This document shows positions 36,811 to 42,214 of a DNA stretch of 64,000 nucleotides, in pieces; within the stretch, counting starts at the first letter, position 1, and each line of letters starts with the position of its first letter. Made by a program: the position numbers and the translations under genes. The notes under the pieces are model-generated. The model was given only the letters and a program-made list of their open reading frames with translations. It had not been told where the DNA came from and did not search any database. The stretch is taken from assembly GCF_009914755.1 (NCBI RefSeq), contig NC_060935.1; one strand, given 5' to 3'. Source of the stretch: the human T2T-CHM13v2.0 reference genome, Homo sapiens.

Positions 36811-37273
36811 TTTTCCGCTTGGATTTTTGCTTTAAATTAAAATTACTAGTTACAGGATGATCCCCTCAATATTATCTTCTTTTCTTTATCATTTCAGTGG
36901 CATTAACATCATTTTTAACTGAAACTCTTTTGACATAGCAAATCTGATATGCAATATGTGATATATTTTCATTCCATACAGATCTGCCTTCACTCAGGGC
37001 TCACCCTAGTGCCTTAACATATATCCTGCCAAACAACACAACATGTGGTCAAGCTTTATTTTCTGTAGCTTGTACTATGAGACAACAGGCTAGTCTGATT
37101 TTCTAATTATGAAAGTATTGCTCTGAATACTTTCTAAATGTTCCTTTTGTCCAAAAAAAATTACTATAACCAGTATTTACATACAAATATTGACCACTAT
37201 TGACTCCTGCCTTGGCCTCAGATATAACATGGGCTTACATGTTCTCATTTAAAGTACTTATAGAAATATGCTC

Positions 37274-37714
37274 TTTCACTCCTGTCGGTGTGAAGAGACT
37301 ACCAAACAGGCTTTGTGTGAGCAACAAGGCTGTTTATTTCACCTGGGTGTAGGTGGGCTGAGTCCAAAAAGAGTGAAAGGAGATAGGGGTGGGGACATTT
37401 ATTTGGGTAGGTAAAGGAAAATTACAGTCAAAGGGGGGTTGTTCTCTGGTGGGCAGGGGTGGGGGTCACAAGATGCTCAGCAGGGGAGCTTTTGAGCCAG
37501 GATGAGCCAGGAGAAGGAATTTCACAAAGTAATGTCATCAATTAAGGCAGGAACAGGCCATTTTCACTTCTTTTGTGGTAGAATGTCATCAGTTAAGGCA
37601 GGAACAGGCCATTTTCATTTCTTTTATGATTCTTCACTTGCTTCAGGCCATCTGGGCATATACGTGCAGGTCACAGGGGATATGATGGCTTAGCTTGGGC
37701 TCAGAGGCCTGACA
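37274..37714 (-). mobile_element. Complete LTR7-family LTR (HERV-H)
   Basis: Reverse complement reads TGTCAGGCCTCTGAGCCCAAGCTAAGCCATCATATCCCCTGTGACCTGCAC...GAGTGAAA. Two ~51-bp U3 repeats (37531, 37582). Left flank TGCTC. Confidence 0.96.
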
Positions 37715-37717
37715 TTA

Positions 37718-37892
37718 AGAACAACCCCCCTTTGACTGTAATTTTCCTTTGCCTACCCAAATAAACGGCCCCACCCCATCTCCCTTCGCTGACTCTTTTC
37801 AGACTCAGCCCACCTGCACCTAGGTGAAATAAACAGCCTTGTTGCTCACACAAAGCCTGTTTGGTGGTCTCTTCACACCGACACGAGTGAAA
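37718..37892 (+). mobile_element. LTR7 3' half (end of U3, R, U5), opposite orientation to the adjacent LTR
   Basis: agaacaacccccctttgactg...cacaccgacacgagtgaaa, an inverted copy of 37274-37445. Confidence 0.95.
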
Positions 37893-37894
37893 TT

Positions 37895-37912
37895 TGGTGC
37901 CGCGACTCGGAT
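37895..37912 (+). other. Primer-binding site for tRNA-His
   Basis: TGGTGCCGCGACTCGGAT, 17/18 match to TGGTGCCGTGACTCGGAT, directly after U5. Confidence 0.93.
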
Positions 37913-38426
37913 TGCGGGACCTCCCTCGGGAGATCAATCCCCTGTCCTCCTGCTCTTTGCTCCATGAGAAAAATCCATCTATGACTTCAGGTCCTCAGAC
38001 CAACCAGCCCAAGGAACATCTCACCAATTTTAAATCGGGTAAGTGGCCTCTCTCTACTCTCTTCTCCAACCTCTCTCACTATCCCTCAACCTCTCTCCTT
38101 TCAATCTTGGTGCCATCTTTCAATCTTTCCCTTCTCTTAATTTCAGTTCCTTCCCTTTTCTGGTAGAGACAGGAGATGTGTTTTATCCGTGGACCCAAAA
38201 CTCCAGCACCAGTCACAGACTCGGGAAGACAGTCTTCCCTTGGTGTTTAATCACATGGGGATGCCTGCCTGATTATTCACCCACATTTCAGAGGTGTCTG
38301 ACCACACAGGGACGCCTGCCTTGGTCCTTCACCCTTAGCGGCAAGCATTGCTTTTCTGGGGGGCAAGCACCCCCCACCCCTTCTCTCCATGTTTCTACCC
38401 TTCTCTTTAAACTTGCCTCCTTCACT

Positions 38427-39940
38427 ATGGGCAAACTTCCACCCTCCATTCCTCCTTCTTCCTTAGCTTGTGTTCTCAAGAACTTAAAACCTCTTCAACT
38501 CTCACCTGACCTAAAATCTAAGCATCTTATTTTCTTTTTTTTTTTTTTTTTTTTGAGACAGAGTCTCGCTCTGTTGCCCAGGCCGGACTGCGGACTGCAG
38601 TGGCGCAATCTCGGCTCACTGCAAGCTCCGCTTCCCAGGTTCACGCCGTTCTCCTGCCTCAGCCTCACGAGTAGCTGGGACTACAGGCGCCCGCCACCGC
38701 GCCCGGCTAATTTTTTGTATTTTTAGTAGAGACAGGGTTTCACCTTGTTAGCCAGGATGGTCTCGATCTCCTGACCTCATGATCCACCCGCCTCGGCCTC
38801 CCAAAGTGCTGGGATTACAGGCGTGAGCCACCGCGCCCGGCCAGCATCTTATTTTCTTCTGCAACACTGCTTGACCCCAGTACAAACTCGACAGTGGTTC
38901 CAAATAGCCAGAAAACGGCACTTTCAATTTTTCCATCCTACAAGATCTAGATAATTCTTGTCGTAAAATGGGCAAACAGTCTGAGGTGCCTGACGTCCAG
39001 GCATTCTTTTACACATTGTTCCCTCCCTAGTCTCTGTTCCCAATGCGACTCGTCCAAATCCTCCTTCTTTTCCCTTCTGCCTGTCCCCTCAGTCCCAATC
39101 CCAAGCATCGCTGAGCCTTTCTAATCTTCCTTTTCTACAGACCCATCTGACCTCTCCCCTCCTCCCCAGGCAGAACTAGGTCCCAATTCTTCCTCAGCCT
39201 CCACTCCCCAACCTTATAATCTTTTTATCACTTCCCCTCCTCACACCCAGTCCAGCTTACAGCTTCATTCCGCTACTAGCCCTCCCCCACCTGCCCAGCA
39301 ATTTCCACTTAAAGAGGTGGCTGAAGCTAAAGGCATAGTCAAGGTTAATGCTCCCTTTTCTTTATCCCAAATCAGATAGCATTTAGACTCTTTTTCATCA
39401 AATATAAAAACCCAGCCCAGTTCATGTCTTGTTTGGCAGCAACCCTCAGACGCTTTACAGCCCTAGACCCTAAAAGGTCAAAAGGCCATCTTATTCTCAA
39501 TATACATTTTATTACCCAATCTGCTCCCAACATTAAAAAAGTCTTCAAAAATTAAAATCTGGCCCTCAAACCCCACAACAGGAATTAATCAACCTTGTCT
39601 TCAAGGTGTACAATAATAGAGTAGAGGCAACCAAGTAGCAATGTATTTCTGAGTTGCAATCCCTTTCCTCCACTGTGAGACAAACCCCAGCCACATCTCC
39701 AGCACACAAGAACTCCAAACACCTGAACTGCAGCTGCCAGGGGTTCCTCCAGAACCTCCTCCCCCACGAGTTTGCTACAAGTGCCGGAAATCTGGCCAAT
39801 GGGCCAAGGAATGCCCGCAGCCTGGGATTCTTCCTAAGCTGCGTCCCATCTGAGTGGGACCCCATTGGAAATTGGACTGTCCAACCCGGCAGCCACTCCC
39901 AGAGACCCTGGAACTCTGGCCCAAGGCTCTCTGACTGACT
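38427..39940 (+). pseudogene. gag: HERV-H gag remnant
   Basis: [25 protein letters not shown] start; degenerate zinc knuckle CYKCRKSGQWAKEC near 39773; interrupted by AluYb8 and stops. Confidence 0.85.
38537..38842 (-). mobile_element. AluYb8 (human-specific)
   Basis: 7-bp duplication ggactgc-ggactgc, plus 'caccttgttag' and 'cctcatgatcc'. CpGs largely intact. 16-bp TSD agcatcttattttctt (38521-38536 and 38843-38858). Confidence 0.95.
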
Positions 39941-40029
39941 CCTTCCCAGATCTTCTCAGCTTAACCGCTGAAGACCGACACTGCCCGACAGCCTCAGAAG
40001 CCCCCTAAACCATCATGGACACCGAGCTT

Positions 40030-41411
40030 CGGGTAACTCTCACAGTGGAGGGTAAGTCCATCCCCTTCTTAATACGGAGGCTACCCACTCCACATTACCT
40101 TCTTTTCAAGGGCCTGTTTCCTTTGCCTCCATAACTGTTATAGGTATTGATGGCCAGGCTTCTAAACCTCTTAAACTCCCCAACTGTGGTGCCAACTTGG
40201 ACAATACTCTTCTAAGCACTCCTTTTTAGTTATCCCCACCTGCCCAGTTCCATTAGGTCGAGACATTTTAACTAAATTATCTGCTTCCCTGACTATTCCT
40301 GGGCTACAGCCACACCTCATTGCTGCCTTTTCCCCCAGTTCAAAGCCTCCTTCACATCCTCCCCTTGTACCTCCCCACCTTAAACCACAAGTATAGGACA
40401 CCTCTACTCCCTCCTTGGCGACCGATCATGCACCACTTACCATCCCATTAAAACACAATCACCCTTACCCCGCTCAACGCCAGTATCCCATCCCACAGCA
40501 TGCTTTAAAAGGATTAAAGCCTGTAGTCACTTGCCTGCTACAGCATGGCCTTTTAAAGCCTATAAACTCCCTTTACAATTCCCCCATTTTATCTGTACAA
40601 AAACCGGACAAGCCTTACAGGTTAGTTCAAGATCTGCTCCTTATCAACCAAATTGTTTTTGCCTGTCTACCCCATGGTGCCAAACCCTTATACTCTCCTA
40701 TCCTCAATACCTCCCTCCACAACCCATTATTCTGTTCTGGATCTCAAACATGCTTTCTTTACTATTCCTTTGCACCCTTCATCCCAGCCTCTTCACTTTC
40801 ACTTAGACTGACCCTGACACCCATCAGGCTCAGCAAATTACCTGGGCTGTACCGCCTCAAGGCTTCAGACAGCCCCCATTACTTCAGTCAAGCCCAAATT
40901 TCTTCCTCATCCATTACCTATCTCAGCATAATTCTCATAAAAACACACATGCTCTCCCTGCTGATTGTGTCCGGCTAATCTCCCAAATCCCAATCCCTTC
41001 TACAAAACAACCCCTTTCCTTCCTAGGCATGGTTAGTGTGGTCAGAATTCTTACACAAGAGCCAGGAACCCACCCTGTAGCTTTCTGTCCAAACAACTAG
41101 ACCTTACTGTTTTAGCCTAGCCCTCATGTCTGCGTGCAGCAGCTGCCGCTGCCTTAATACTTTTAGAGGCCCTCAAAATCACAAACTATGCTCAACTCAC
41201 TGCCTACAGTTCTCACAACTTCCAAAATCTGTTTTCTTCCTCACGCTTGACACATATACTTTCTGCTCCCAGGCTCCTTCAGCTATACTCACTCTTTGTT
41301 GAGTCTCCCACAATTACCACTGGTACTGGCCCAGACTTCAATCTGGCCTCCCACATTATTCCTGATACCACACCTGACCCCCACAACTGTATCCCTCTGA
41401 TTCACCTGACA
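40030..41411 (+). pseudogene. pol: HERV-H pro-pol remnant
   Basis: Degenerate protease motif (NTEATHS). RT N-terminus QYPIPQHALKGLKP...[19 protein letters not shown]. Frameshifted and internally deleted. Confidence 0.88.
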
Positions 41412-42214
41412 TGCTCTCACCCTATTCATGTGGCCTGATACGCACTTCTGGCTTTTATTTCTCTTTCATAACAATGTGACAGCAGCAGATTTTAACTAAT
41501 CACACTAATGACTAGAGACCCTTTGTGGAGTTTATGAATTAGTGATAAAGTGGAACAAATCTGCAAAGTAAAGGAAAATGCCTCATCAAACTTATTCATT
41601 TATTTTGACAAGAGCAATTTTGGTTTAATTACTTATGATGGCATTTCAGTAAATGTGCTGTAGCATGTTTTCTCAAATTAATTAAGCCCCCTTTTCCCAC
41701 TAACACACTGTGCTTATAGAAAAAGGAAAAAAAAAACACATATTTCATTGAGACATTCACTGGTTTCTGGATTCCTTTGGGAAAATATATAAAAATTTTT
41801 CAAAATTGTTTCCTTTTGAATATATATTCCATAAACTCATCTGGAGAGAAAATTAGGTATTTATTGTAGAAGATAAATTTGGATATAAATTGAATTTGGA
41901 GCTAAATTTGCTTTTCTATTTGTAAAGTACATTGAAATATGTCCTAAGAGGAAAGCTTCAACTAAGCTGTTTTTACTACTTTCCACCAGAGAATCAGAAG
42001 CTGAAATAAAAAATGAAAAAAACCCTCTATTTACCAATTCATAGACTTTCTGGATTAAAACTAATTTTTGCCTAATATATTAATAGAAGCAATATTTTGT
42101 ATTTTACACCTCCACAAATCATGTTATGAAATAACTCAATCCCACCACAGTGAAAATGAAGTCCTTTGGTTCTGTGATGAAAATTTTAATTTTTGGCTCA
42201 CTCTGAATATGTTG

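What the first reader, a model, noticed from the sequence alone, without database searches (positions are those of the whole stretch)
37269..41416. HERV-H provirus whose interior is inverted relative to its LTR and target-site duplication
Seen: TGCTC (37269-37273), complete LTR7 on the minus strand (37274-37714), 'tta', LTR7 3' half on plus, PBS-His, gag-pro-partial pol on plus, CCTGACA (41405-41411), TGCTC (41412-41416). The outer termini (TTTCAC... and ...CCTGACA) and the 5-bp direct repeat are those of a single minus-strand integration, yet the interior reads on plus. The two LTR pieces share the same variants (ccaaataaa where I recall ccaaatcctataaaa; cacaccgaca), which points to one provirus rather than two neighbours. 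Established: normal proviruses have direct-repeat LTRs, and HERV-H makes 5-bp TSDs. Inference: a ~3.7-kb segment from mid-5'LTR to pol was inverted, with loss of most of the 5' U3 and of the 3' pol/env region.
Basis: partly seen in the sequence, partly recalled or inferred. Interest (0 to 1): 0.8.

Follow-up and report, generated by a model that had tools for sequence, protein, structure and literature searches.

The report
Inverted HERV-H provirus ending inside pol
This is one old, dead HERV-H insertion whose front half lies back to front and whose right-hand end is a short stretch inside its own pol gene that looks like the normal tip of the virus; two other human loci end at the same base, so the virus probably used it as a spare end when inserting.

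Summary
The two LTR pieces come from one provirus: both carry a 6-bp TATA-box deletion found nowhere else in the genome (2 of 2 genome matches; 0 of 28 other LTR7 copies).

One correction. CCTGACA at 41405-41411 is not a leftover LTR tip. It is native HERV-H pol sequence (10 of 11 other copies; the 15-mer holding it occurs 510 times). Its extended form CCTGACATTC is the reverse complement of GAA|TGTCAGG, the junction just before and into U3. I call this site P.

Two other HERV-H copies end exactly at P, each with a perfect 5-bp target-site duplication:
- chr3:147.86 Mb has the same inverted layout (GATGC on both sides).
- chr12:88.35 Mb is not inverted. It runs from a complete 5'LTR to P (GTTTG on both sides).

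So the window's TGCTC duplication is probably real. P behaves as a surrogate viral DNA end, and the rearrangement was most likely made before or at integration, not by a later chromosomal inversion (about 0.6 against 0.22).

How P becomes a free end is unresolved. No primate orthologue could be checked, and the census covered only part of the copies.

The parts
37269..37273 (.). Left copy of the 5-bp target-site duplication, TGCTC
   Evidence: It abuts the U5 end (TTTCAC...) of the minus-strand LTR. The flank 36900-37273 is single copy in the genome.
37274..37714 (-). Complete LTR7 (441 bp) bearing the element's only U5-type outer end. It carries a 6-bp TATA-box deletion.
   Evidence: It aligns from position 1 to 431-441 with other LTR7 copies, with termini TGTCAGG...GTGAAA. 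The deletion is private to this locus.
37715..37717 (.). 3-nt filler 'tta' at the inner joint. The first two bases could be the complement of the AA that precedes U3 in intact proviruses.
   Evidence: Other loci read ...GACAGGAA|TGTCAGG before the 3'LTR. A 2-nt match has a 1 in 16 chance.
37718..37892 (+). Last 175 bp of the sister LTR7 (position about 270 to the end), followed by the primer-binding site, so it is the 5'LTR of the inverted block
   Evidence: Inverted repeats I1 and I2. It differs from the minus LTR at 11 of 171 aligned sites (6.4%, K2P 0.068) and shares the 6-bp deletion.
37895..37912 (+). Primer-binding site TGGTGCCGCGACTCGGAT
   Evidence: Read. The same motif follows the 5'LTRs of other loci. 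The tRNA-His assignment is recalled, not tested.
37893..41411 (+). HERV-H interior: leader, gag, pro and the first ~1 kb of pol. Every frame is broken.
   Evidence: Colinear with natural copies L055 and L056, reference positions 270 to 3960/3971. Gag_p30 and RVP remnants fall below Pfam cutoffs. RT N-terminus has E 7.7e-13.
38537..38844 (-). Later Alu insertion in the gag region, with its own 16-17-bp duplication (38520-38536 and 38845-38860)
   Evidence: It is the gap in colinearity with both reference copies. The Alu name comes from reading the sequence and is recalled.
41403..41412 (+). Site P: pol-internal CACCTGACA|T. The element ends after CCTGACA (41411). In other copies P reads CCTGACATTC, the reverse complement of GAA|TGTCAGG at the PPT/U3 boundary.
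   Evidence: 10 of 11 other copies have CCACCTGACATTCACC here. The 15-mer occurs 510 times genome-wide. Two other loci end at the same base.
41412..41416 (.). Right copy of the 5-bp target-site duplication, TGCTC
   Evidence: TGCTC occurs at about 1 per 1000 positions in this window. The extra GCTC is private to this copy: 0 of 11 copies have it, and the window holds the only exact genome match.
41417..41426 (.). TCACCCTATT: probably host flank. It matches the pol continuation after P at 9 of 10 positions (10 of 10 to copy L006). Unexplained.
   Evidence: The per-position chance is about 5e-5 in this window. BLAST therefore places the end of HERV-H similarity at 41426.

Best explanation
This is a single integrase-made insertion of an aberrant HERV-H DNA, flanked by the TGCTC duplication.

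The two ends of that DNA were the normal U5 tip of one LTR (now at 37274) and a site inside pol, P (CCTGACA, now at 41411). P copies the processed U3 tip in reverse orientation. Because P faces the wrong way, a molecule that pairs a P end with a U5 end must carry the 5'LTR-gag-pro-pol block flipped relative to the U5-bearing LTR. That is the layout seen here.

The inner joint (37714-37718) looks like two free DNA ends joined after trimming. One is the U3 end of the flipped block, cut back by about 269 nt. The other is the 3' half, cut back to the PPT/U3 boundary. A 1-3 nt filler sits between them.

Shown: the structure, the sister LTRs, the pol origin of CCTGACA, and two more P-terminated copies with perfect 5-bp duplications.

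Inferred: that integrase used P as an end, that the flip preceded integration, and that the inner joint is end-joining. How P became a free end is not known.
For: 1. The two LTR pieces are sisters: the shared 6-bp deletion is in 0 of 28 other LTR7 copies, and both genome matches to it are these two pieces.

2. CCTGACA(TT) is native pol sequence: 10 of 11 copies and 510 genome matches of the 15-mer. It mirrors the PPT/U3 boundary GAA|TGTCAGG.

3. I screened copies for a non-consensus base after P.
- One search gave 15 hits. Seven were HERV-H: 5 continue with a point change and 2 stop at P. Eight were chance matches.
- One search gave 10 hits: 8 chance matches, this window, and the chr3 locus.

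4. Both new P-terminated loci have perfect 5-bp repeats at exactly the predicted bases.
- chr3: GATGC|rc-LTR ... CCTGACA|GATGC, with the same inverted layout.
- chr12: GTTTG|TGTCAGG-5'LTR ... CCTGACA|GTTTG, not inverted.
Each match has about a 1 in 1024 chance.

5. In both inverted loci the 5'LTR lacks its U3 start (window 1-269; chr3 up to 165) and the joint holds filler (tta here; 150 bp of pol in chr3). This is the pattern expected from a trimmed free U3 end.

6. The chr3 LTR pair is 94.4% identical over 269 nt, closer than any of 28 other copies, which reach at most 93.4%.

7. Precedents in print:
- 2 of 78 distinct HIV-1 proviruses carried inversions, and 26 of 88 sequenced proviruses had asymmetric LTRs (PMC9278108, passages read).
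- Foamy-virus integrase cleaves an internal palindromic LTR-LTR junction (PMC1180852, abstract and passages).
Against: - HERV-H similarity continues for 10 nt beyond the right TGCTC if a 4-bp gap is allowed. Of 39 non-self matches, 33 run to 41426, and both reference copies do. Under my reading those 10 nt are host flank and the likeness is an unexplained coincidence (about 5e-5 per position).
- There are only three loci. The census covered only copies with an exact upstream anchor (510) and about 89% of possible flank sequences.
- No control site in pol was screened the same way.
- No mechanism that exposes P as a free end was shown.
- An inversion in the chromosome between the LTR tip and P would give the same right end and the same duplication for this window and for chr3. 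Only chr12, one locus, separates the two histories.
- By overall BLAST score the two LTR pieces are not nearest neighbours: the local minus LTR ranks 29th of 40, at 91%. The sister claim therefore rests on the private deletion.
Confidence: 0.6

Rival explanations
1. A canonical minus-strand provirus was inverted in the chromosome after integration. In this reading the event was an inversion flanked by deletions (delINVdel), by replication template switching or break repair. It used the 8-nt inverted microhomology between the TSD-plus-LTR tip (A|TGTCAGG) and pol (CCTGACAT). A deletion and 'tta' filler formed at the other joint, either in the same event or later within the resulting inverted-LTR pair.
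For: It gives exactly the observed right end and keeps the duplication. Microhomology at one joint and a short insertion at the other are the published signature of delINVdel-type complex variants, attributed to FoSTeS/MMBIR (PMC6286558, passages; class named in PMC5338099, passages). The chr3 locus fits the same scheme.
Against: It cannot make the chr12 locus, where a complete 5'LTR and P are each flanked by GTTTG with no inversion. It needs the same 7-10-nt microhomology to have been used twice independently. In both inverted loci the 5'LTR deletion starts at the LTR tip, and here the other side stops at the PPT/U3 boundary, which random chromosomal breaks do not predict.
Confidence: 0.22
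2. The interior really runs to 41426 with a private 4-bp insertion (GCTC), the right flank starts at 41427, and the TGCTC pair is a coincidence. The locus would then be a rearranged provirus that lost its right end and duplication.
For: BLAST ends at 41426 against 33 of 39 copies and against both reference copies. TCACCCTATT matches the pol continuation at 9-10 of 10 positions.
Against: Private insertions are rare in this copy: 2 in about 2.6 kb, and none of 4 bp. The insertion would have to fall exactly after CCTGACAT and spell GCTC, which occurs at about 2e-3 per position. No other HERV-H copy has it: 0 of 11, and none of the 7 near-matches examined out of 13 is HERV-H. Two other loci that stop at the same base have perfect duplications.
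Confidence: 0.06
3. Two separate insertions lie side by side: a solo LTR7 on the minus strand next to, or nested in, a truncated plus-strand HERV-H.
For: Nesting of retroelements is common (general knowledge). The minus LTR is complete at both tips.
Against: The 6-bp deletion shared by both pieces exists nowhere else in the genome. The solo LTR would lack its own duplication, with TGCTC on the left against TTAAG on the right. No upstream part of a plus-strand LTR lies left of it.
Confidence: 0.02
4. The layout is an assembly fold-back artefact.
For: Inverted repeats can mislead assemblers (general knowledge).
Against: The arms differ at 11 of 171 sites plus indels, so they are old copies and not a mirrored read. 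Unique flanks lie on both sides. The same layout occurs at an unrelated locus.
Confidence: 0.01

Closest known systems
Canonical HERV-H (LTR7 / HERVH-int) provirus
   Same: It has LTR7 termini, a primer-binding site after U5, gag-pro-pol order, a 5-bp duplication, and an interior colinear with other copies.
   Different: The LTRs are inverted rather than direct. One outer end is inside pol rather than at a U3 tip. About 269 nt of one LTR and about 1.4 kb of 3' interior are missing.
Defective HIV-1 proviruses with internal inversions or asymmetric LTRs, formed before integration (PMC9278108, passages read)
   Same: These are rearranged at reverse transcription or before integration yet are properly integrated. 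One LTR is partly deleted. They are rare, with inversions in 2 of 78 distinct proviruses.
   Different: Those proviruses keep both true LTR tips. Here one tip is replaced by an internal look-alike, and the event recurs at one fixed base.
Internal att sites and integrase cleavage of LTR-LTR junctions (foamy virus, PMC1180852, abstract and passages). Engineered vectors with an internal attachment site were seen only as titles in that paper's reference list.
   Same: An att-like sequence that is not at a DNA end is acted on by integrase.
   Different: Those sites are full U5-U3 junction palindromes, natural in circles or engineered. P is a 7-10-nt chance mimic of the U3 tip alone, inside a gene. 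No enzyme assay exists for HERV-H.
delINVdel complex structural variants (PMC5338099, PMC6286558, passages read)
   Same: An inverted block has sequence lost on both sides, with microhomology at one joint and a small insertion at the other.
   Different: Those arise in chromosomes at arbitrary breakpoints. Here the breakpoints sit at viral DNA landmarks and recur at one base, and one P-terminated copy has no inversion.
Retroviral autointegration products (recalled; review titles only)
   Same: A viral end is joined to the virus's own interior, giving an inversion. In chr3 the 5 nt TGACA lie on both sides of the break, as a 5-bp staggered attack would leave them.
   Different: Autointegration gives circles that are dead ends and are not inserted in host DNA. 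The chr3 5-nt overlap is equally explained by the U3 tip, which has the same letters.
L1 twin priming (recalled)
   Same: It produces a 5' block inverted relative to the 3' block within one insertion.
   Different: There is no poly(A) tail, the element includes U5, and it has a fixed 5-bp duplication at LTR-type ends.

Membership tests
HERV-H / LTR7 provirus | LTR7 with termini TGTCAGG...GTGAAA | tested here: met
   The minus LTR aligns from position 1 to 431-441 with other LTR7 loci, which share these termini.
HERV-H / LTR7 provirus | Primer-binding site directly after U5, complementary to tRNA-His | tested here: inconclusive
   The motif at 37895-37912 is the same as after other 5'LTRs. Complementarity to tRNA-His was not tested and is recalled.
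HERV-H / LTR7 provirus | Interior colinear with HERVH-int (gag, pro, pol) | tested here: met
   Colinear with two natural copies up to reference position 3960/3971. RT N-terminus has E 7.7e-13. The gag and pro remnants fall below Pfam cutoffs.
HERV-H / LTR7 provirus | Two LTRs in direct orientation at the two ends | tested here: not met
   The LTR pieces are inverted and adjacent. The right end is in pol.
HERV-H / LTR7 provirus | 5-bp target-site duplication | tested here: met
   TGCTC is on both sides. 7 of 11 solo LTR7 have perfect 5-bp repeats. Caveat: the right copy lies inside the BLAST-defined similarity.
delINVdel complex structural variant | Inverted segment with loss of sequence at both sides relative to the ancestral allele | tested here: inconclusive
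   The layout fits when compared with other HERV-H copies. The ancestral allele at this locus is unknown.
delINVdel complex structural variant | A colinear ancestral allele existed in the chromosome | not testable with these tools
   No primate genomes or human population assemblies are held. The chr12 locus argues against this history for the class.
Integration through a surrogate (cryptic) att end | The element ends at an internal sequence that matches a processed LTR tip | tested here: met
   CCTGACA|TT in pol against AA|TGTCAGG at U3.
Integration through a surrogate (cryptic) att end | Family-typical duplication directly at that internal end, in independent insertions | tested here: met
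   Three loci have perfect 5-bp repeats: TGCTC, GATGC and GTTTG.
Integration through a surrogate (cryptic) att end | Integrase processes and joins that end | not testable with these tools
   This needs a bench assay.
L1-mediated retrocopy with twin priming | Poly(A) tail and a variable 7-20-bp duplication | tested here: not met
   No A-run or T-run lies at either end, and a 5-bp repeat sits at LTR-type ends.

The most novel reading that the evidence does not exclude
HERV-H carried, inside pol and facing backwards, a mimic of its own U3 end. Strand transfer or cleavage by its integrase at that spot leaves a new 3' end (...CCTGACA) that the enzyme cannot tell from a true processed U3 tip. In this way, otherwise suicidal self-attacks were rescued into host integrations. 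Attack by the U3 end gives the inverted form seen in this window and at chr3. Attack by the U5 end releases the 5' fragment, which inserts alone, as at chr12. These loci would be a fossil record of autointegration and of cryptic att use in a germline retrovirus.
Probability: 0.2. Interest if true: 0.75.

Novelty: new variant of a known kind. Interest (0 to 1): 0.6.

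Why it matters
Aberrant proviruses are usually read as later damage. Here three independent insertions stop at one base inside pol, each with the family's own 5-bp duplication. This suggests that some odd ERV structures record what reverse transcription and integration did some 15-30 million years ago. 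That age comes from 6.4% LTR divergence and substitution rates that I recall.

If confirmed, it would be a natural case of a retroviral integrase using an internal look-alike of its attachment site. It also gives annotators a rule: HERVH-int fragments that end at CCTGACA should be checked for duplications and for inverted partners.

For the locus itself nothing functional follows. Every frame is broken, both LTR pieces lack the TATA box, and the nearest annotated transcript (LINC01616, 44216-46489) does not overlap.

I found no description of such a site or of inverted HERV-H proviruses. Searches were judged from listings and abstracts only, and subscription journals are not covered.

Tried and rejected
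- Empty-site reconstruction from paralogues failed: both flanks are single copy.
- Relocated missing parts: no other HERV-H or LTR7 lies in the 64-kb window.
- The GCTC insertion as a subfamily trait was rejected: 0 of 11 copies have it. The window holds the only exact genome match. None of the 7 near-matches examined is HERV-H, and 6 more were not examined.
- Ranking the two LTR pieces by BLAST was uninformative: the local partner ranks 29th of 40.
- 'tta' as the interior's end: only its first two bases fit the AA before U3.
- Nested integration into the plus LTR was rejected: the expected target bases (cag) and the left-hand LTR part are absent.
- L1 twin priming was rejected: no poly(A).
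- A plain fold-back duplication was rejected: the plus piece is followed by the primer-binding site and gag, not by mirrored flank.
- Pfam found no RT domain. The PDB sequence search did.
- A pattern with trailing Ns, meant to show the bases after P, was trimmed by the tool.
- Two extra candidates proved to be chance matches.
- A looser anchor found no further copies.
- No structure or complex job was relevant.

Full report
**What is there.** The window reads, left to right:
- unique flank, then TGCTC (37269-37273);
- a complete 441-bp LTR7 on the minus strand (37274-37714);
- tta (37715-37717);
- the last 175 bp of an LTR7 on the plus strand (37718-37892, LTR position about 270 to the end);
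- TT and the primer-binding site (37895-37912);
- HERV-H interior on the plus strand, ending ...CACCTGACA (41411);
- TGCTC (41412-41416), then unique flank.

The repeat finder recovers the inverted LTR arms: 101 nt at 94% and 60 nt at 95%. The termini TGTCAGG...GTGAAA and the 5-bp duplication of the family were checked on other loci; 7 of 11 solo LTR7 have perfect 5-bp repeats.

The interior is colinear with two natural HERV-H copies from reference position 270 to 3960/3971. It is interrupted by an Alu (38537-38844) that has its own duplication. Coding remnants lie in the order gag, pro, pol:
- Gag_p30 and protease hits, both below Pfam cutoffs;
- a degenerate zinc knuckle;
- the RT N-terminus at E 7.7e-13 to MoMLV RT.

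About 1.4 kb of 3' interior (reference 3972-5364) and the first ~269 nt of the plus-strand LTR are absent. They are not elsewhere in the 64 kb.

**One provirus or two?** By overall score the two LTR pieces are not each other's best match. The local partner ranks 29th of 40, at 91%, and the best foreign copy reaches 93%. However, both pieces lack the same 6 bp at the TATA box. None of the 28 other LTR7 copies aligned has this deletion. A genome-wide pattern search at up to 2 mismatches finds it only twice, and both matches are these two pieces. They differ at 11 of 171 aligned sites (K2P 0.068). That is old divergence, roughly 15-30 million years with substitution rates I recall. It rules out a mirrored-read artefact and fits two LTRs of one ancient provirus.

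**The right end.** It is in fact native pol sequence. 10 of 11 other copies read CCACCTGACATTCACCCC at the colinear place, and the 15-mer CTGATYCACCTGACA occurs 510 times in the genome.

Against a clean end at 41411, other copies continue TCACCC(C/T)ATT. The window, after four private bases GCTC, reads TCACCCTATT. BLAST therefore carries the similarity to 41426 in 33 of 39 non-self matches and against both reference copies.

That leaves two readings. Either the duplication is real and the 10-nt likeness of the flank is chance (about 5e-5 per position in this window). Or the interior runs to 41426 with a 4-bp insertion that happens to recreate TGCTC. Three facts count against the second reading:
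- Private insertions are rare in this copy: 2 in about 2.6 kb, and none of 4 bp.
- GCTC occurs at about 2e-3 per position.
- No other HERV-H copy has the insertion.

**Other loci settle it.** I searched the genome for copies in which the base after CCTGACA is not the usual T.
- One search gave 7 hits.
-, with a shorter anchor, gave 15 hits. Eight were non-HERV chance matches and 7 were HERV-H. Of those 7, five simply carry a point change and continue, and two stop dead at CCTGACA.
- One search used a complementary pattern and gave 10 hits: 8 chance matches, this window, and the chr3 locus.
- One search used a looser anchor and found no further copies.

The two new loci are:
- chr3:147.86 Mb (L064). 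It reads GATGC | rc 3'LTR - rc 3' interior (reference 5364 down to 3956) - 150 bp of pol filler - 5'LTR from position 166 - gag-pro-pol up to CCTGACA | GATGC. This is the same inverted layout as the window, with a perfect 5-bp repeat. Its LTR pair is 94.4% identical over 269 nt, closer than any of 28 other copies.
- chr12:88.35 Mb (L065). It reads GTTTG | TGTCAGG... complete 5'LTR - interior up to CCTGACA | GTTTG. It has no inversion and no second LTR within the 9.9 kb held.

So three independent insertions end at the same nucleotide. In each, a perfect 5-bp direct repeat has its other copy abutting an LTR tip, with a chance of about 1 in 1024 per locus. I conclude that the window's TGCTC pair is a real target-site duplication (about 0.9) and that this pol site, P, served as a viral DNA end.

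**Why P.** Intact proviruses read ...GACAGGAA|TGTCAGG at the 3' interior/U3 boundary. P reads CCTGACA|TTC, the reverse complement of GAA|TGTCAGG. This covers the seven tip nucleotides, the two nucleotides that integrase trims from an unintegrated U3 end (established retrovirology), and one more. The antisense strand just upstream of P is purine-rich (GGGGAAATGGGGTG). I note this but cannot use it.

Cut after CA, P gives a 3' end identical to a processed U3 tip but pointing toward gag. A DNA ending in P can have as its other end either the true U3 tip, as at chr12, or a U5 tip. The U5 case requires the 5' block to be flipped relative to the LTR that supplies U5, as in the window and at chr3. 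The geometry therefore predicts the two forms that are seen.

**Before or after integration.** A chromosomal inversion between the LTR tip and P (8 nt of inverted microhomology, counting the adjoining duplication base) would give the same right end for the window and for chr3. Inversions flanked by deletions, with microhomology and small insertions, are a known class of complex variant (PMC5338099 and PMC6286558, passages).

I rate this history lower, at 0.22, for three reasons:
- It cannot make the chr12 locus.
- It needs the same short microhomology to have been used twice.
- In both inverted loci the 5'LTR is trimmed from its very tip (1-269; up to 165), and the joint carries filler (tta; 150 bp). 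In the window the other side stops at the PPT/U3 boundary, where the plus strand of unintegrated DNA has a natural discontinuity (established retrovirology). That is the pattern of free viral DNA ends joined after trimming.

Proviruses rearranged before integration are documented for HIV-1: 2 of 78 distinct proviruses had inversions, and 26 of 88 sequenced had asymmetric LTRs (PMC9278108, passages). An integrase acting on an internal att-like junction is documented for foamy virus (PMC1180852, abstract and passages).

What exposes P is open. It could be integrase cleavage of the mimic, a self-attack by a viral end that leaves ...CCTGACA-3'OH, or a reverse-transcription copy-back at the 9-10-nt inverted repeat. 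At chr3 the 5 nt TGACA lie on both sides of the break, as a 5-bp staggered attack would leave them. The U3 tip has the same letters, however, so this does not decide.

**Limits.**
- No primate or population assemblies were available.
- The census covers only copies with exact anchors and about 89% of possible flanks.
- No control position in pol was screened.
- The literature searches were judged from listings and abstracts, and supplements were not read.
- 'PBS-His', 'Alu', the trimming of two nucleotides and the substitution rates are recalled knowledge.

**Verdict.** It is wrong about the heptamer and probably about the history. The locus itself is inert. The interest lies in the recurrent pol-internal end.

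Noticed in passing
window 38520-38860: An Alu on the minus strand (poly-T at the left, 38537-38844) is inserted in the gag region. Its 16-17-bp duplication AGCATCTTATTTTCTT lies at 38520-38536 and 38845-38860.
   Followed up: partly
window 39624-39650: A 27-bp insertion private to this copy, relative to two reference HERV-H copies. Its origin was not examined.
   Followed up: no
window 37531-37628: A tandem 47-nt repeat with 51-nt spacing and 94% identity lies in the U3 of the minus-strand LTR (D2). I did not check whether it is standard for LTR7.
   Followed up: no
window 41417-41426: The ten bases right of the duplication match the pol sequence that normally follows site P at 9-10 of 10 positions. 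If they are host flank, this is an unexplained coincidence.
   Followed up: partly
L064 3795-3947 (G000:C3:147855500-147865400): The inner joint of the chr3 inverted provirus holds a 150-bp second copy of pol (reference 2976-3127) in the orientation of the 3' half. It looks like a template-switch or filler footprint.
   Followed up: partly
window 41380-41411 minus strand, and HERV-H copies generally: The antisense strand next to P reads as a purine-rich run followed by AATGTCAGG. It looks like a polypurine tract plus U3 start placed backwards in pol. Its significance is unknown.
   Followed up: no
window 37752-37775 and 37388-37411: Both LTR pieces lack the TATA box, so this provirus probably arrived without a working LTR promoter, or the deletion spread between its LTRs afterwards.
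   Followed up: partly
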